A DNA stretch of 40,725 nucleotides, from the NCBI GenBank assembly GCA_964016885.1, contig CAXHJY010001094.1, forward strand, positions 1 through 40,725. The letters are read 5' to 3'. Numbering within the stretch: position 1 is the stretch's first letter; each line of letters starts with the position of its first letter. The DNA is from Eledone cirrhosa. Its lineage: Eukaryota. Position numbers and translations under genes: made by a program. This document shows, piece after piece, positions 24,135-40,725 of this stretch. A model generated the notes under the pieces. That model saw nothing but the letters and a program-made list of their open reading frames with translations. It had not been told where the DNA came from and ran no database searches.

Positions 24135-24345
24135 ATATTGTTATATTTGGGGAGGGTCATATTTGCGTAATATTGCCAGAATTAATAACAGAACACACTC
24201 ACTGTTTGGTTGGTTTTTGCTTCTCGCTGTCTTTTATATATATATATCTGCGATCTAACTTACTCGGTCCTCAATGTTGCCATTGACTGACCGGCGGTCA
24301 AAAATAATACAGATACAATATAGACAAACACATATATATATAGTT

Positions 24346-24390
24346 TACATAAATCTTTCGTTGCACATCTGCAACATCGTCAGTGGTGTT
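24346..24390 (-). ncRNA. Minimal hammerhead-like motif in the PLE 3' region (probably degenerate)
   Basis: Minus strand: acacca CUGACGA u GUUGCA gaug UGCAAC GAAA gau UUA ugu. Core boxes and a perfect 6 bp stem II are present; stem I is only ~2 bp. Confidence 0.55.
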
Positions 24391-24654
24391 ATATTCATTG
24401 TTCCTCCTGTTGTGTTGTATGTCTACGCCATTTTTTTGTTCAGTCTGTCTATATATTTATTTATTTATTTGCTTGTTTGTTTATCTTATTTTATTTTGTC
24501 TTCTTTGCGCATGCGTTTGCGTGTGTGTATAGTGTTATGTGTGATGTGTGACTAGTGTGTATAGTGTTGTGTCTGCTGGGTGACTAGTGTGTGTTTATGT
24601 GCTTGTGTATGTATTTATTTATCTTATTTTATTTAATTTAATTTACTTATTTAT

Positions 24655-25660
24655 TTATACTTCTCTTAGGTCAGTGTTGTTTGTTTGGGTGTTGTTGTTG
24701 TTCCACTCATTCTTTCTGTTTAGCTTTGGTCTTCTAATTTCTATTTCACTGGCCTCTCTGATTTGCCTATCTGCTGGGTCATTCCTATGTTTAGATATTA
24801 TTCTAATTTCTATGTTGTCTATGTTACCGTCATGATGTTGTCTAGCATGTTCGTATAGTACTGACCCGTTTTTTCGTCCTTTTAGTTCCCCCCAGTGTTG
24901 GTCTATCCTTTCACCTATGCTACGAGCTGTCTCACCTATGTATGTTGTTGTCGTGTTTCTGCAAGTACCCGCTGTACATCTTATGCTATAGACTACGTTT
25001 CTAGTTTTACAGTTTATCCGGGGGTTCACCTTACATATGATACATTTCCTATTGGTACAGTGGGTTTTCTTAAAAGGGTAGGTTTTGCTGATCAGGGATT
25101 TTATGGTGGTTCCTGGCTTTTCTACCACCTTTATTTTTAAGTGGGTCTTTCTCAGGGCCTTTCTACACTGGTTAGCTAATTTCCCTCCAGGGGTGGCGTC
25201 CACAAACATGACACTCTGATATCTCTGGTTGTCGTACCATGATGTGGCCTTCCCTATCTTATGTCTAGCCCTATCTAAGCTATTCCATGATTTGCTCCTG
25301 TATAGTGGGCAAATTCCTTTCATGTCCAGTTCTATGAGGGTCTTATACTTTTCCATGGCTCCTTCGTATACTCTGACTGTCTCTTTGGTTGTAGCCAGAG
25401 AACTGCATGCGGTTGATGAAGTGTTGGATGTGTCCTTCCATTTCTGTTGGGTCGCACATGCTGGACACATTCTTCATCACTCGTACCAAATCTGCGATCA
25501 GAATATTAAACTTAGCACTACTGGACATTGCTGAGTTTTTGAGTATCAGGTATTTGGAGGCCATGGGTTTAGCATAGTGTGAGTGGAGAATTTGGGCTCT
25601 CTCATCTATAGTGTTAATCCAGAGTTCTGTGTCTAATACAGGTAGTCTATTGTTAGGGTT
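24655..25660 (-). pseudogene. PLE RT C-terminus/thumb + GIY-YIG endonuclease (partial, frameshift at ~25378)
   Basis: From 25660: NPNNRLPVLDTELW..HYAKPMASKYLILKNSAM..RMQFSGY; after a frameshift: PLYRSKSW..MFVDATPGG..IKVVEKPG..C..C..C..NVVYSIRC..C..YIGETARSIGERIDQH..RQIREASEI..LNRKNEW. Confidence 0.88.
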
Positions 25661-27529
25661 GCACTCAAGCTTTCACATGAGAATGAGAGGGCAAGGAAAG
25701 AGAACAGGGCCATAGAAAACATTAAAACAAACCCTAAGGCCTTCTTTAAATTTGCAAAAGAAACTGCCTCAGTACACTGCAAGATTGGACCACTCTTCCA
25801 CACGGACGGTTCATTAACCGAAAATCCCCAAGAGATATGTGAAATACTGAACGAACAGTACAAAAGTGTCTTCACATGTCCACTGAGGCACATGCAAATA
25901 ACGAAGCCAGAGGAGTTCTTTGATGCCACAACACTACATCAAGAAATGACAACCATCAACCACATAGACATAACGGAGGAGGATGTGGTGTACGCCATTG
26001 ATGAAATTAGAACAGACTCGGCTGCTGGACCTGATGGATTCCCAGCAGTTCTAAAAATATGTAAGCGGGCCTTAGCAACTCCACTGAAGATGCTCTTCAG
26101 AAGCTCCTTAGCTAGCGGTGTACTACCCAGGGAGCTGAAAGAAGGCACAATATGCCCTATCCATAAAGGAGGTAGTAGAGCGGAGGCCAAGAACTATAGG
26201 CCAGTCTCCCTGACGTCGCATATCAGTAAGGTCATGGAGCGAGTCGTCAGAAAGAAACTAATCACTTTCCTCGAAGAAAATGACCGCCTGACTAGCACGC
26301 AACATGGCTTCCGCCCAGGAAGAAGCTGCCTTACACAGCTGCTACATCACTACGACTGGGTACTGAGACAGCTACTAGACAGCTCACATGTAGACGTGAT
26401 ATATCTTGACTTTGCGAAGGCCTTTGACAAGGTCGACCACGGAATGATATGTCACAAACTACACGGACTCGGCATAACTGGAAAAGTAGGTGAGTGGCTG
26501 CATGGCTTCCTGAGGGACAGAAGCCAGGCAGTCGCAGCAAATGGGGCCCTCTCGAGGGAAACACCGATAACAAGTGGGGTGCCTCAGGGGACAGTCCTGG
26601 GACCACTACTGTTTTTGGTGGCTCTCTCGGACATGACCTCTGTGGTGCATGCAACAACATCCCTCACTAGCTATGCTGATGACACTAAGGTAGCACAGGC
26701 AATCAAAAACCCGGCTGACGCTGCCCTCTTACAGCAGGATCTGGATGCCATATACAGATGGGCGGAAGAAAACAACATGCAGTTTAATGCTGGCAAATTC
26801 CAAGCCCTACAATACAAACCTGCAAACACAAACACAAATATAGCGGAACACAGCTACACAGGACCAGGAGGGACCGATATCCCCGTGTCAAATTCGATAC
26901 GAGACCTGGGCATAGACATGAGCGATGATGCATCTTTTTCTTCACACATCATGAAGGTGGCGACAGCATGTAGACGATTCGCTGGCTGGATCTTGAGGAC
27001 TTTCCTTACAAGAGATCGAGACACCATGTTGACACTGTGGAGGACTTTTGTCCTAAGCCGCCTGGACTACTGCTCCCAGCTGTGGTCACCCCATAGTGTC
27101 AAACTAACCACAGAGCTCGAGGCAATCCAGCGAAGCTACACCAAGAGGATTGCCAAGATAAGGGAGACAAGCTACTGGGAGAGGCTGAAGGAACTGAACC
27201 TCTACTCCTTGGAGCGAAGACGGGAGAGATACGCAGTGATCTACATGTGGAAAATCCTGGAGGGACTAGCACCAAACTTTGGCATTGGGAGCTGGACCAA
27301 CCGTCGAACAGGACGTCACTGTGTGGTGCCAAAGGTCCCGTCTTCCACATCTAGAATAAGGAGCATGTATTGCAATAGCCTGGGATTCAAGGGCCCTCAA
27401 CTCTTCAACAGGCTGCCGAGGCATCTGCGAGACTTGCATGACGTGGAGGTGGATGTCTTTAAGAAACATCTCGACACCTTGTTATCCAGGATCCCGGATG
27501 AGCCCACAGCAAGACACGAGGGAAACTAA
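25661..27529 (+). CDS. Partial ORF2 reverse transcriptase of a CR1-group LINE (APE domain lost by truncation)
   Basis: [80 protein letters not shown]. Same frame as ORF 25892-27529. A likely indel near 27522 cuts off the tail [12 protein letters not shown], which reads in the adjacent frame. Confidence 0.88.
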
Positions 27530-27663
27530 GGGCAGCAGCAACAAACTCCCTTCTACACCAGTGGCCAACCTATACAGGCTGGAGATAAAGTGTGTAGCAG
27601 CAAGGGCGGTGCCCCAGCATGGCCTCAGCCGGATGGCTGAAACAGGTAAAAGAGTAAAAGAGT
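25661..27663 (+). mobile_element. 5'-truncated CR1-group LINE
   Basis: RT-coding frame open from 25661 ([15 protein letters not shown]), short 3' UTR with hairpin tcagcc-ggat-ggctga and a (GTAAAAGA)2 tail running into the microsatellite. Confidence 0.88.
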
Positions 27664-32078
<4,415 letters not shown>

Positions 32079-32689
32079 TGGTGGCTGCCAACTCGTTTTC
32101 GAGTACGGCCACTACTTTATATCCATGTAGGAGAACCCCTACCGATGCGCTGAACGAGTGACTTTTTAGTCCAGCCAGCGACTTGAAAACTCTGGTACAA
32201 ACACTACACTTGTGACAATTATTGACACATAGTGCTTTGCCTTTGGTACCATGTGACGACAAGTGCAGAGAGATCTCCAGATACAAAGCAATGCCTGTGC
32301 CGTGAAGCTTTTATAGTGAGCAAAGGCACTGCACAAAGCCAGTCCCACTCTCTTAACCAAGATGATATTTACCAAAAAGAAGAACAAGTCAACATCATTG
32401 GATACCATCAGGGTTGCAGGTGTTATATCAGAGTTTTCCTTCTCCTAGAATTCTGCCTTGACAAAGGCTAAGGGGTCATCTCTCCCACTGATTTTGGATG
32501 GCCATTGACTCTTAAGAGCTCCTTTGCCCTTTGACAGGTTTTGTTTTTAGTCCTGCAGGATGTCCAAAGTCACCCTCCTCACCAAGAAACCTTGGTGGGG
32601 TTGCCAGTTTAGTCGCCAACGACCCGACCATGAGACAGGTTGTACTGGGATACATGTTACCAGTAGCACCAAGTGGTGACCTGACATAA
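32079..32689 (-). mobile_element. Non-autonomous RTE-derived bipartite element (SINE-like), copy 1
   Basis: ~610 bp island duplicated at 34173-34785 with the same ends. The minus strand has ctaggagaaggaaaactctga (32428-32448), which I recognise as an RTE 5' UTR motif, and a zinc-finger remnant [17 protein letters not shown] (32158-32208) near the 3' end. Confidence 0.72.
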
Positions 32690-33788: not shown

Positions 33789-34172
33789 CATATATATATA
33801 CATACATATATATATATATATACATATATATACATATACATATATATACATATATATATATATATATACATATATATACATATACATATATATACATATA
33901 TATATATATATATACATATATATACATATATATACATATATATATATATATATACATATATATACATATATATACATATATATATATATATATACATATA
34001 TATACATATATATACATATATATATATATATATACATATATATACATATATATACATATATATATATATATATACATATATACATATATATATATATATA
34101 CATATATATACATATATATACATATATATATATATATATACATATATACATATATATACATATATATATATA
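32690..34172. repeat. (TA)n/(TACA)n compound microsatellite array
   Basis: (YA)n on the + strand, rich in catata units. Confidence 0.97.
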
Positions 34173-34785
34173 TGGTGGCTGCCAACTCGTTTTCGAGTAC
34201 GGCCACTACTTTATATCCATGTAGGAGAACTCCTACTGATGCGCTAAACAAGTGTGACTTTTTAGTCCAGCCAGCGACTTGAAAACTCTGGTACAAACAC
34301 TACACCTGTGACAATTATTGACACATAGTGCTGGGCCCATGGTACCATGTGACGACAAGTGCAGAGAGATCTCCAGATATAAAGCAATGCCTGTGCTGTG
34401 AAGCTTTTATAGTGAGGAAAGGCACTGCACAAAGCCAGTCCCCACTCTCTTAACCAAGATGATATTTACCAAAAAGAAGAACAAGTCAACATCATTGGAT
34501 ACCATCAGGGTTGCAGGTGTTATATCAGAGTTTTCCTTCTCCTAGAATTCTGCCTTGACAAAGGCTAAGGGGTCATCTCTCCCGGTGATTTTGGATGGCC
34601 ATTGACTCTTAAGAGCTCCTTTGCCCTTTGACAGGTTTTGTTTTTAGTCCTGCAGGATGTCCAGTCACCCTCCTCACCAAGAAACCTTGGTGGGGTTGCC
34701 AGTTTAGTCGCCAACGACCCGACCATGAGACAGGTTGTACTGGGATACATGTTACCAGTAGCACCAACTGGTGACCTGACATAAG
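34173..34785 (-). mobile_element. Non-autonomous RTE-derived bipartite element, copy 2
   Basis: About 97% identical to copy 1 by eye (roughly 14 substitutions and 3 small indels). RTE-type motif at 34525-34545; complete C2H2 finger [22 protein letters not shown] followed by Q and a stop at 34233-34304. Confidence 0.72.
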
Positions 34786-35146
34786 ATATACATACATACA
34801 TATATACATACATACATACATACATATATACATACATACATACATACATATATACATACATACACACATACATACATACACATATACATACATATATACA
34901 TACATGCATATACACATACATACATATATATATACATACATATACACATACATACATATACACATACATACATATACATATACATACATATATACATACA
35001 TACATACACACATACATACATACACACATACATACATACATACATACATACATACACACATACATACATATATACATACATATATATATACATATATATA
35101 TACATACATACATACATATACACATATACATACATATATACAGACA

Positions 35147-35178
<32 letters not shown>

Positions 35179-35433
35179 CATACATATACATACATACATA
35201 CACATATACATACACACACATATATATACATACATACATACATATACATATATACACACATACATACGTACATATATATATACATACATACATATACATA
35301 TACATACATATATATATACATACACATACATATACATACATATACATATACATACATACATACATATATACACATACATACACACACACACATACATATA
35401 TGTATATATATATATACATATATATATATATAC

Positions 35434-35480
<47 letters not shown>

Positions 35481-35509
35481 CATATATATACATATATACA
35501 TATATATAC

Positions 35510-35549
<40 letters not shown>

Positions 35550-35957
35550 ACATATATATACATATATATATATATATACATACATATATATATATACATA
35601 TATATACATACATATATATATATACATATATATACATATATATATATATATACATATATATACATATATATATACATATATATACATACATATATATACA
35701 TATATATACATACATATATATACATATATATACATACATATATATACATATATATACATACATATATATATATACATATATATATATACATATATATACA
35801 TACATACATATATATACATATATATACATACATACATATATATACATATATATACATACATATATATATATACATATATATATATACATATATATACATA
35901 CATATATATATATACATATATATACATACATATATATATATACATATATATATATAC

Positions 35958-35997
<40 letters not shown>

Positions 35998-36295
35998 ACA
36001 TATATATACATACATATATATATATACATATATATATATACATATATATATATACATATATATATATACATATATATATATACATATATATATATACATA
36101 TATATACATACATATATATATATACATATATATATACATACATATATATATATACATATATATATACATACATATATACATACATATATATATATATACA
36201 TATATATATATACATATATATATATACATATATATATATACATATATATATACATATATATATACATACATATATATATACATATATATATACAT
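34786..36295. repeat. (TACA)n/(CA)n/(TA)n compound microsatellite array
   Basis: (YA)n on the + strand; the first 600 bp is notably TACA/CACA rich. Confidence 0.96.
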
Positions 36296-36531
36296 AGTAT
36301 GCATGTATACGTACATACATATATGTATACAGACGTACAGTAGCATGCACATATATATATATATATACATATATATATACATATGCATACAGGTACACAT
36401 ACATATATGCACGTATCAGTTTAGCGGCGCTAACGTCGCTTTGTTCGTTTGTAAACAAACTGAACAGCCTGAATTTATGCCATACGGTGTTAAGGCAACC
36501 ACGTCACCTTTTTGTTCAACACTGACACAGG

Positions 36532-36576
36532 AACGATGTACTAGTTTCAAGCTTGTTAGCTATCATCAGCACCGTT
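36532..36576 (-). ncRNA. Type I hammerhead ribozyme, copy 1
   Basis: Minus strand: AACGGUG CUGAUGA u AGCU aaca AGCU u GAAAC ua GUA^CAUCGUU. Stem I is 7 bp (one G-U), stem II 4 bp, stem III the palindrome ACUAGU; cleavage predicted between 36539 and 36538. Confidence 0.85.
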
Positions 36577-36998
36577 TACCCCATCTGCCAGATAGTTGAA
36601 CGTTCGAAAGTATATACTTTCCTTATGAAAATTAACGGCTGAGCAGCCTAATTTGCATATTGAGTGAGTTAAATCGGTCAGGCATACCGAAAACGATAAA
36701 TTGAAACAAAATGAAAACGAAATTTCATTTCTCACTCTTAGTATGGCACTTACTTAAATGTAAGTATGCATGTATACGTACATACATATATGTATACAGA
36801 CGTACAGTAGCATGCACATATATATATATATATACATATATATATACATATGCATACAGGTACACATACATATATGCACGTATCAGTTTAGCGGCGCTAA
36901 CGTCGCTTTGTTCGTTTGTAAACAAACTGAACAGCCTGAATTTATGCCATACGGTGTTAAGGCAACCACGTCACCTTTTTGTTCAACACTGACACAGG

Positions 36999-37043
36999 AA
37001 CGATGTACTAGTTTCAAGCTTGTTAGCTATCATCAGCACCGTT
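36999..37043 (-). ncRNA. Type I hammerhead ribozyme, copy 2
   Basis: Identical to copy 1. Confidence 0.85.
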
Positions 37044-37451
37044 TCCCATCTGCCAGATAGTTGAACGTTCGAAAGTATATACTTTCCTTATGAAAATTAA
37101 CGGCTGAGCAGCCTAATTTGCATATTGAGTGAGTTAAATCGGTCAGGCATACCGAAAACGATAAATTGAAACAAAATGAAAACGAAATTTCATTTCTCAC
37201 TCTTAGTATGGCACTTACTTAAATGTAAGTATGCATGTATACGTACATACATATATGTATACAGACGTACAGTAGCATGCACATATATATATATATATAC
37301 ATATGCATACAGGTACACATACATATATGCACGTATCAGTTTAGCGGCGCTAACGTCGCTTTGTTCGTTTGTAAACAAACTGAACAGCCTGAATTTATGC
37401 CATACGGTGTTAAGGCAACCACGTCACCTTTTTGTTCAACACTGACACAGG

Positions 37452-37496
37452 AACGATGTACTAGTTTCAGGCTTGTTAGCTATCATCAGCACCGTT
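37452..37496 (-). ncRNA. Type I hammerhead ribozyme, copy 3
   Basis: As copy 1 except for one substitution (tttcaggc versus tttcaagc on +) that gives an A-C mismatch at the base of stem II. Confidence 0.78.
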
Positions 37497-37616
37497 TACC
37501 CATCTGCCAGATAGTTGAACGTTCGAAAGTATATACTTTCCTTATGAAAATTAACGGCTGAGCAGCCTAATTTGCATATTGAGTGAGTTAAATCGGTCAG
37601 GCATACCGAAAACGAT

Positions 37617-37680
37617 ATATATATATATATACATACATATATATACATATATATATATATATATACATACATATATATAC

Positions 37681-37735
<55 letters not shown>

Positions 37736-37967
37736 CATACATATATATACATACATACATATATACATACATATATACATACATATATATATATATACAT
37801 ATATACATACATATATACATACATATATATATATATACATATATACATACATATATACATACATATATATATATATACATATATACATACATACATATAT
37901 ATATACATATATACATACATACATATATATATACATACATATATATATACATATATACATACATACA

Positions 37968-38005
<38 letters not shown>

Positions 38006-38160
38006 CATATACATACATACATATACATATATATATATATATATACATACATATATATACATATATATATATACATACATATATATACATATATATATAT
38101 ACATACATATATATAGATATATATACATACATATATATAGATACATATATATACATACAT
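37617..38160. repeat. (TA)n/(TACA)n compound microsatellite array
   Basis: (YA)n on the + strand. Confidence 0.96.
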
Positions 38161-38248
38161 ATAACTTTGAATAACTTTGAAATGTTTTGGCCAGTATTGG
38201 CCCAGGCCATGTCTAACTTAATAGCACCACCTGGCGAAGTCTTTCAAT

Positions 38249-38938
38249 TCAGGATTTGGGCACCATGGCCCATTCGAGAAGAGAATTACTGTTTGCGGAG
38301 ACATATCCGGGTGTGGGTGGTTTGTCCGGGATTACTTGGAGGAATTTGTCCAAAGACTTCTTGAATTTTGTGTGGTCAGTTTCTGTTTTGACGTGTCCTG
38401 GTGTGATGTTGAAGAGAGCAGGGCCGATTGAGGTGAAATAATTGTGCCGTATTGTTGTTATGAGTTGCGATTTAGATTTTTGAATGGGACGGATAGCACG
38501 GGGCCCAAGCCTTGGGTGTATCTTGAAGGCGATGCCAACATCATTTGGGCAGTGATGATGGAACATTTTCCACATCATGCAGATAATATAACGCTCACGG
38601 CGACGTTGGAGTGAGTAAAGTTTCAGGTTTTCCAATCGACCCCAGTAGTCAAGGTCTGACATGCCATCTATCTTTTTCGTGATTGCCCTTTGAGGAGCTT
38701 CAAGTTTCATGATACTTTGTTTCGTGTGGGGAGACCACAGTGGACAACAGTATTCAAGGTGTGGTCGGGCGAAAGTAGAGAAGAGAAGGATAATGGTGCG
38801 GGAATCTCTCGACTGGAAGGTTCTGAGGATCCAGGAACACATTCTGCGGGCCATGTCAACTTTGCTGCTTATATGCGTGGTCCAGCTTATGTTGCTGTCC
38901 ACGGTTACTCCCAAGTCTCTGATGTTGTTAGATGCCAC
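38249..38938 (-). CDS. C-terminal fragment of a CR1-group ORF2 (post-RT region)
   Basis: [58 protein letters not shown] align by eye with the end of ORF 25892-27529. Confidence 0.83.
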
Positions 38939-38995
38939 GAGAGTTAGATGCCACGAGAGTTGTTAGATGCCACGAGAGTTAGATGCCACGAGAGT
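38924..38995. repeat. Four tandem copies of a 16/19 bp unit at the LINE 5' junction
   Basis: (gtt)gttagatgccacgaga at 38924, 38943, 38959 and 38978 (19-16-19-16 bp). Confidence 0.93.

Positions 38996-40725
<1,730 letters not shown>

What the first reader, a model, noticed from the sequence alone, without database searches (positions are those of the whole stretch)
36296..37616. Tandem ~465 bp units each carrying a type I hammerhead ribozyme: candidate retrozyme / circular RNA family
Seen: three regularly spaced minus-strand motifs (spacing 467 and 453 bp) with intact CUGAUGA and GAAA boxes, a GUA triplet, 7 bp stem I, 4 bp stem II and a palindromic ACUAGU stem III; the unit is non-coding. Known: minimal type I hammerheads with palindromic stem III occur in Penelope-like element pLTRs and in metazoan non-LTR retrozymes, where tandem copies cleave as dimers and can give circular RNAs. 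Inference: a minus-strand transcript would self-process into ~453-467 nt monomers, and the non-integer copy number with ends away from the cleavage site fits rolling reverse transcription of a circular template. The unit seems long for a metazoan retrozyme, and the U-U pair at the base of stem II is atypical.
Basis: partly seen in the sequence, partly recalled or inferred. Interest (0 to 1): 0.88.

Follow-up and report, generated by a model that had tools for sequence, protein, structure and literature searches.

The report
Hammerhead repeat riding Penelope-like retrotransposons
A 467-base non-coding repeat that carries a predicted self-cutting hammerhead RNA, present in tens of thousands of copies in this animal genome, ends its insertions at two fixed internal points the way Penelope-like retrotransposons do, so it is a 'retrozyme' likely copied by their enzyme, a partnership so far mostly inferred from co-occurrence.

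Summary
Observation confirmed: three minus-strand type I hammerhead motifs, 453 and 467 bp apart, in a 2.9-unit array inside (TA)n. It is one copy of a young, dispersed family (10,608 exact copies of a 33-nt core; about 40,000 related motifs including a sister family at 60% identity). The unit folds far better than shuffles (z -7.6) and its helices covary between families. The kind is known: a metazoan non-LTR retrozyme; neither its length nor the U-U pair is exceptional. In 75 loci, 106 of 132 3' ends fall at two fixed internal sites about 60 nt apart, mostly running into (TA)n, and 26 of 27 classifiable inverted insertions pair one short with one long end. [quoted passage not shown] No attached PLE ORF was found. 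Cleavage, expression and circles are untested; an uncleaved multimer could be the template instead. The scan noted a retrozyme and a PLE-pattern repeat in other genomes before.

The parts
36296..37617 (-). Whole insertion: 2.9 tandem units, 5' end at monomer position 308, 3' end at position 243 (the 'short' end), counted from the cleavage site
37453..37495 (-). Hammerhead 1 (one stem II mismatch); predicted cut after 37459
37000..37042 (-). Hammerhead 2; predicted cut after 37006
36533..36575 (-). Hammerhead 3; predicted cut after 36539
37006..37458 (-). Predicted cut-to-cut monomer 1, 453 nt (12 nt shorter TA tract)
36539..37005 (-). Predicted cut-to-cut monomer 2, 467 nt; highly self-paired, 5' and 3' ends brought together by an extension of stem I
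36811..36860 (-). Internal TA tract at the tip of a long hairpin (also 37276-37313 and 36344-36393); variable in length between loci, absent as a tract from the sister family
36755..36769 (-). 'Short' 3'-end site, monomer 245-251, inferred reverse-transcription start 1 (also 37220-37234; the array itself stops in the third copy of this site at 36296)
36696..36706 (-). 'Long' 3'-end site, monomer 305-310, inferred reverse-transcription start 2 (also 37161-37171); the ~60 nt between the two sites correspond to a PLE 'tail'
34786..36295 (.). (TA)n/(TACA)n microsatellite, target on the 3' side
37618..38163 (.). (TA)n/(TACA)n microsatellite on the 5' side
24135..25659 (-). 5'-truncated copy of the resident Neptune-like PLE (GIY-YIG end of the ORF, pLTR with its own minimal-type hammerhead at 24355-24383, short end at 24135): a candidate mobiliser family, not part of the array

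Best explanation
This is one copy of a dispersed family of non-coding ~467-base tandem repeats, each unit carrying a type I hammerhead motif, whose insertions end at two fixed internal sites beside (TA)n microsatellites, and it is likely copied by the reverse transcriptase of a Penelope-like element from a predicted self-cut RNA circle. Shown by sequence: the family, its fold and covariation, the two fixed 3' ends, scattered 5' ends, inverted arms of one variant pairing a short with a long end. Inferred: arrays are transcribed; hammerheads cut, probably as dimers through the ACUAGU palindrome; monomers are ligated; a PLE protein acting in trans nicks (TA)n and primes cDNA at the two internal sites, one per target strand in inverted insertions, then runs through the ribozyme junction for one to several laps. 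Very long arrays probably grew further in place.
For: Copy number and dispersal: 10,608 exact core matches, control 0; 23,681 + 16,617 wider motif matches, controls 0 and 3. Fold: z -7.61, 0 of 100 shuffles as good; across 14 monomers of families A, B, C, 23 of 79 predicted pairs change on both sides, including stem I, stem II and a helix closing 270 nt; in 25 A/B copies 96.7% of cells paired, 0/500 shuffles as high, slid controls 33-43%. Ends: 106 of 132 non-edge arm ends at two sites, (TA)n after 97 of those 106; inverted pairs 26 short+long, 1 short+short, 0 long+long (P about 2e-7). Sister family C has the same two ends at about 230 and 300. Both arms of an inversion are the same variant in 28 of 28 pairs tested (closer than the median of other loci); units within an arm differ by a median 0.7% against 5.4% between loci. 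The resident Neptune-like PLE has ends at 220 and 263-278 with the same pairing and target. Two adjacent internal starts and extension of both strands are shown in vitro for a PLE (PMC11167929). Circles are shown for coral, mussel and axolotl retrozymes (PMC7229834).
Against: No cleavage, transcript or circle was tested here. In the one PLE studied in vitro, hammerhead cleavage was not needed and unprocessed RNA was the main substrate. Only 1 of 9 Xenopus retrozyme dimers cleaved in vitro. Within the young subfamily the catalytic core is barely better kept than unpaired control positions (97.1% against 95.8% unchanged). The partner PLE is not identified: at least Neptune-like, Poseidon-like and Hydra-like families occur in the flanks, none with sequence similarity found to the unit where tested (PLE-A only). 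26 of 132 ends fell outside the two sites (partly script artefacts at the TA tract) and 18 of 45 inverted pairs could not be classed. Covariation rests on three related lineages, found by a pattern that required the core.
Confidence: 0.55

Rival explanations
1. Same element and same PLE mobiliser, but the template is an uncleaved multimeric transcript (or linear monomers joined by template jumps); the hammerhead makes monomers or circles that are not the transposition intermediate.
For: Internal initiation and tandem products need no circle; catalytic hammerhead mutants did not affect insertion by the anole PLE in vitro. Source arrays are near-homogeneous, so multimer copying would also give near-identical units. 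My test on variants within arrays was noisy and did not separate the two.
Against: Linear copying loses part of a unit each generation, so multi-unit insertions need some regenerating step (inference). Young arrays often share one locus-specific TA-tract length across all units (50/50/50, 74/74/74). The monomer's ends are held together by a conserved helix, and stem I and II covary around an intact core over 40% divergence.
Confidence: 0.3
2. The unit is the tandem pseudo-LTR or an internal-deletion derivative of an autonomous PLE that is still in the genome (a question of origin; not exclusive of the mechanism above).
For: 24 of 57 Xenopus retrozyme families match known elements, nearly all PLE termini. 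Geometry relative to the ribozyme matches the resident PLE (ends 220-278 nt past its ribozyme). Hydra-clade PLEs carry canonical hammerheads and target (TA)n; two loci join the unit in the same orientation to Hydra-like ORF fragments (L062, L065).
Against: No unit continued into a PLE ORF at a recurring position in the loci examined; no similarity to PLE-A beyond (TA)n; PLE-A and PLE-B carry a different hammerhead type; the apparent start codon near position 278 lies in a hairpin and is missing in family C; the L065 fragment is degenerate and the two junctions differ. Only about 110 insertions of many thousands were seen, so a rare partner is not excluded.
Confidence: 0.11
3. A satellite DNA spread by DNA-level mechanisms, with the hammerhead a fossil.
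For: Arrays of 36 or more units exist, with higher-order periodicity and, in two, a broken palindrome or a GUG triplet.
Against: Most copies are dispersed 1-5-unit insertions with strand-specific fixed 3' ends, scattered 5' ends and head-to-head inversions; the two longest arrays with both ends seen also end in one short and one long site; structure covaries.
Confidence: 0.04

Closest known systems
Metazoan non-LTR retrozymes (Cervera and de la Pena 2020, PMC7229834: parts 2-4 of 6 read; Li, Clavereau and Pollet 2026, bioRxiv 10.64898/2026.07.22.740005: parts 1-3 of 5 read, supplements closed)
   Same: Non-coding tandem units with one type I hammerhead each, low GC, thousands of copies, highly self-paired predicted monomer; U-U at the base of helix II as in axolotl HHR_Amex2; length inside the published 51-972 bp.
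   Different: Those papers propose PLE mobilisation from shared ribozymes, co-occurrence and pLTR similarity; in the parts read they do not describe insertion ends (no 'tail', 'initiation' or 'target site' in Li et al.). Here the ends show the PLE signature, and no pLTR similarity was found. Expression and cleavage are shown there, not here.
EN+ Penelope-like elements, Neptune/Hydra types (Craig et al. 2021, PMC8557442: passages and section 11 read; Frangieh et al. 2024, PMC11167929: parts 1-2 of 4 read)
   Same: 5' truncation, partial tandems, inverted 5'-truncated arm, tail on one end only, (TA)n target, two internal initiation sites downstream of the ribozyme.
   Different: No ORF; tail about 60-70 nt rather than 30-40; canonical-type rather than minimal hammerhead; initiation sites lie in non-coding hairpins rather than in the ORF start.
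Non-autonomous Chlamys PLEs such as MRC1 (Craig et al. 2021, passage)
   Same: Non-autonomous, multicopy head-to-tail insertions made by PLE machinery.
   Different: They resemble their autonomous partner at the 3' end and mostly lack hammerheads; this family has a hammerhead and no partner similarity found.
PLE minimal hammerheads (Cervera and de la Pena 2014, PMC4209133: parts 1-2 of 4 read)
   Same: Type I topology, palindromic helix III suited to dimer cleavage.
   Different: Minimal motifs have a 7-8-bp helix II with an unpaired 5' base and short helix I; this motif has 6-bp helix I plus internal loop and 4-bp helix II.

Membership tests
Non-LTR retrozyme | Tandem units each with a type I hammerhead motif | tested here: met
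Non-LTR retrozyme | No protein-coding capacity; short unit, GC under 50% | tested here: met
   no LTR/PBS/PPT layout in the arrays read
Non-LTR retrozyme | Many dispersed genomic copies, monomers to multimers | tested here: met
Non-LTR retrozyme | Monomer predicted to be stably self-paired | tested here: met
   z -7.61; covariation
Non-LTR retrozyme | Self-cleavage of the transcript | not testable with these tools
   needs in vitro transcription
Non-LTR retrozyme | Accumulation as linear and circular RNA | not testable with these tools
   needs northern blot or RNase R RT-PCR
Non-LTR retrozyme | Target-site duplication, when present, longer than 4 bp | tested here: inconclusive
   targets are (TA)n, in which a duplication cannot be read
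Rfam hammerhead families | Reaches the gathering score | tested here: not met
   HH9 17.8 bits against 52; no other hammerhead family listed
Element moved by PLE machinery | Two adjacent internal 3' ends (tail on one end only) | tested here: met
   106 of 132 ends; 26 of 27 inverted pairs short+long; same in resident PLE
Element moved by PLE machinery | 5' truncation, inverted 5' arm, (TA)n target | tested here: met
Element moved by PLE machinery | Active autonomous EN+ PLE in the same genome | tested here: met
   many identical 1,217-aa frames in 4,117-bp tandems; RT/HTH_animal/GIY-YIG look-alikes in the Atlas (a lead); Pfam scan blank; clade read from motifs against Craig et al.
Autonomous PLE or its pLTR | Unit joined to or homologous with an RT-EN ORF terminus | tested here: inconclusive
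   none in the loci examined; not met for PLE-A; no genome-wide test possible
PLE minimal hammerhead | 7-8-bp helix II with unpaired 5' base, little or no helix III | tested here: not met

The most novel reading that the evidence does not exclude
A ribozyme-made RNA circle with no sequence taken from any resident PLE hijacks the PLE enzyme by shape alone: two conserved hairpins set the two initiation sites, both strands of a nicked (TA)n target are primed on the same circle, and rolling reverse transcription writes tandem and inverted arrays. This would be a natural minimal substrate showing that PLE enzymes copy circles.
Probability: 0.3. Interest if true: 0.72.

Novelty: new member of a known kind. 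Interest (0 to 1): 0.48.

Why it matters
Which enzyme moves animal retrozymes is an open question; the 2020 review says their repeats show no motif that points to a partner (PMC7761336, passage). Here the insertion ends themselves carry the PLE-specific two-site signature, in two families 40% apart, next to a very active PLE with the same footprint. A 467-nt RNA with mapped candidate start sites is a ready substrate for the PLE in vitro assay and can test directly whether PLE tandems come from circles. The element type itself is not new.

Tried and rejected
Rfam on 34000-40725: only microsatellite noise. The repeat finder on the whole window: swamped by microsatellite. Relic PLE ORF start at monomer ~278: rejected, it is a hairpin without a start codon in family C. 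Internal TA tract as captured target or priming site: rejected as main site, ends cluster elsewhere and family C lacks the tract. Octamer ATGCAAAT as an snRNA-type promoter, as cited for newt satellite 2 (seen only as a citation in PMC2220036; the original was not held): 408 of 466 motif matches keep it, but 54 change it together with its pairing partner, which fits RNA pairing as well; left open. Search for a cognate PLE with the PLE-A RT: saturated by PLE-A. Chimeras with Hydra-like fragments (L062, L065, L078, L149): inconclusive. Core-versus-control conservation: inconclusive. Circle-versus-multimer test from within-array variants: noisy. Family C end census failed on an internal palindrome; I use read by eye (5 of 5 inverted insertions with both ends visible were short+long). 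One search had one helix out of register and was redone; one search split minus-strand arms wrongly and was redone. Sequencing runs: no RNA holder listed. Of 8 runs laid of 24 listed, X2 and X11 (organism B) hold the family in many contigs, X5, X7, X8 and X9 hold few pieces, X1 and X3 essentially none; I draw no range from this. PDB search with the PLE-A RT-EN part: two weak RT matches only. Literature searches found no description of retrozyme insertion ends; subscription journals and the bioRxiv supplements were not visible. Host not identified; the repeat landscape reminded me of cephalopod genomes (recalled, untested).

Full report
Observation. Tandem Repeats Finder gives 36296-37617, period 467, 2.9 copies. 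Random sequences of the same make-up gave such a motif in 6 of 20,000 trials. One copy has a stem II mismatch. Rfam gives only a sub-threshold HH9 match. The window is a whole 40.7-kb contig of a 3.0-Gb genome, mostly (TA)n-type microsatellite with retroelements inserted in it.

The family. An exact 33-nt core occurs 10,608 times, on both strands and, in the listed places, dispersed (control 0). Wider patterns give 23,681 and 16,617 motifs (controls 0 and 3). They comprise family A (the window's; 450-570 nt), subfamily B (420-430 nt) and a sister family C (466-470 nt), collinear with A at about 60% identity. The window monomer folds at -155.6 kcal/mol, z -7.61. An extension of stem I brings the monomer's two ends together. 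In 25 A/B copies the named helices are 96.7% paired, above all 500 shuffles and far above slid controls (relatedness inflates this test). Across 14 monomers of A, B and C, 23 of 79 predicted pairs change on both sides: stem I position 3 reads U-G, G-U or A-U; stem II swaps G-C/U-A and C-G/G-C; its basal pair is U-U in A and B and G-C in C. The layout (6-bp helix I, internal loop, 4-bp helix II, 2-bp palindromic helix III) fits the canonical animal type I motif as described by Cervera and de la Pena 2014. The U-U pair has a cleaving precedent in axolotl HHR_Amex2, and 467 nt lies within the published 51-972 bp. Against over-reading: families B and C were found with patterns that require the core, and within young family A copies the 10 core positions are unchanged in 10,305 of 10,615 copies against 11,208 of 11,703 for 10 unpaired control positions, a small difference.

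The ends. I mapped arm ends on the monomer, numbering from the cleavage site. The loci were mostly the first listed pattern matches on contig C1 plus a few best DNA matches, not chosen for their ends. In 75 A/B loci, 135 arm ends were called, 3 at a locus edge; of 132, 51 fall at a short site (about 245-251), 55 at a long site (about 305-310) and 26 elsewhere, partly where my script broke at an expanded TA tract. (TA)n follows 47 of 51 and 50 of 55. 5' ends are scattered over the unit. Of 45 head-to-head inverted insertions, 27 had both ends classed: 26 short+long, 1 short+short, none long+long (P about 2e-7). Family C ends at about 230 and 300, with 5 of 5 readable inversions short+long (by eye). 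Both arms of an inversion are the same sequence variant in 28 of 28 pairs with 60 or more shared positions; units within an arm differ by a median 0.7% (86 comparisons) against 5.4% between loci (3,424 comparisons). The window's array starts at 308 and stops at 243, a short end.

What makes such ends. The window holds a truncated PLE at 24135-25659. Its family has full 1,217-aa frames in 4,117-bp tandems, many identical copies and 8,708 exact ribozyme matches. [quoted passage not shown] Its ends behave the same way: 47 of 53 non-edge ends (some loci overlap) lie at 205-220 or 246-278 nt past its ribozyme, into (TA)n, with inversions pairing the two. Craig et al. describe inverted arms and a tail at one end as PLE hallmarks. 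Frangieh et al. showed in vitro that a PLE protein cuts and extends both target strands and starts at two adjacent internal sites, the tail being the sequence between them. The retrozyme shares no sequence with this PLE beyond (TA)n, and PLE-A and PLE-B carry minimal-type ribozymes. Poseidon-like and Hydra-like PLE fragments also occur in the flanks, so the partner is not fixed. No unit continued into a PLE ORF at a recurring position in the loci examined.

Mechanism. Shown: family, fold, two fixed internal ends, one per arm, same variant on both arms, multi-unit products that cross the ribozyme junction. Inferred: a PLE protein primes cDNA on the retrozyme RNA at the two sites. Because those sites lie 160-220 nt before the 3' end of a cut monomer, the template must be a circle, an uncleaved multimer, or monomers joined by jumps. 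I favour the circle because retrozyme circles are abundant in three animals, the monomer's ends are held together by a conserved helix, and young arrays often share one locus-specific TA-tract length. The multimer remains a real rival, since ribozyme cleavage was dispensable for the anole PLE, and my variant test did not decide. Long arrays (12, 14 or more, 36 or more units) probably grew in place; two carry damaged cores.

Novelty. The kind is known and PLE mobilisation has been proposed. Seven literature searches found no account of retrozyme insertion ends; subscription papers and the preprint's supplements were not visible. Earlier scan notes record a sea-squirt retrozyme and a tRNA-bearing repeat with a PLE-like insertion pattern in other genomes (unchecked). 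Verdict: new member of a known kind, with good junction evidence for its mobiliser class; interest 0.48.

Noticed in passing
window 24135-25659 (-); L131-L140: Very active Neptune-like PLE family: 4,117-bp monomer, 1,217-aa ORF with a long asparagine-rich insert before the RT, 8,708 exact ribozyme matches, tandems of seven or more copies on C28; missed by Pfam.
   Followed up: partly
L185-L204 (G000 C1): Sister retrozyme family C, 466-470 nt, about 60% identical, same fold and same two ends, G-C at the base of stem II, triplet GUU or GUC, arrays up to about 31 units.
   Followed up: partly
window 6664-10665 (+), 12102-15390 (+), 25646-27654 (+), 38168-38988 (-): Four LINE-type retroelements inserted in the microsatellite: RT with zf-RVT (986-aa frame), endonuclease-RT with DUF6451, an RT of 627 aa, and a 3' fragment with a short internal tandem repeat at 38924-38995.
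   Followed up: no
window 32088-32678 and 34182-34775: Two 96% identical ~590-bp insertions in (TA)n with no ORF, an unclassified short repeat.
   Followed up: no
L175-L176 (G000:C12:26764700-26771200): A 13-unit inverted insertion whose two flanks read the same sequence outward beyond the TA, as if it landed in the TA loop of an inverted repeat.
   Followed up: no
L010-L029 and L177-L178: The long C11 array (about 24 kb) has higher-order periodicity and mostly a broken stem III palindrome yet still ends in one short and one long site; the C3 array has a GUG triplet.
   Followed up: partly
L062 2949-3821, L065 953-2385: Retrozyme arms joined in the same orientation to Hydra-like PLE ORF fragments: either template switches or nested insertions.
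   Followed up: partly
window 37570-37577, 37116-37123, 36651-36658 (-): Octamer ATGCAAAT about 120 nt before each cut site, kept in families A and C; possible promoter element or simply one arm of a conserved hairpin.
   Followed up: partly
flanks of L057, L073, L081, L097, L110, L180, L190, L192: Several further hammerhead-like motif families unrelated to this one turned up in the flanks.
   Followed up: no
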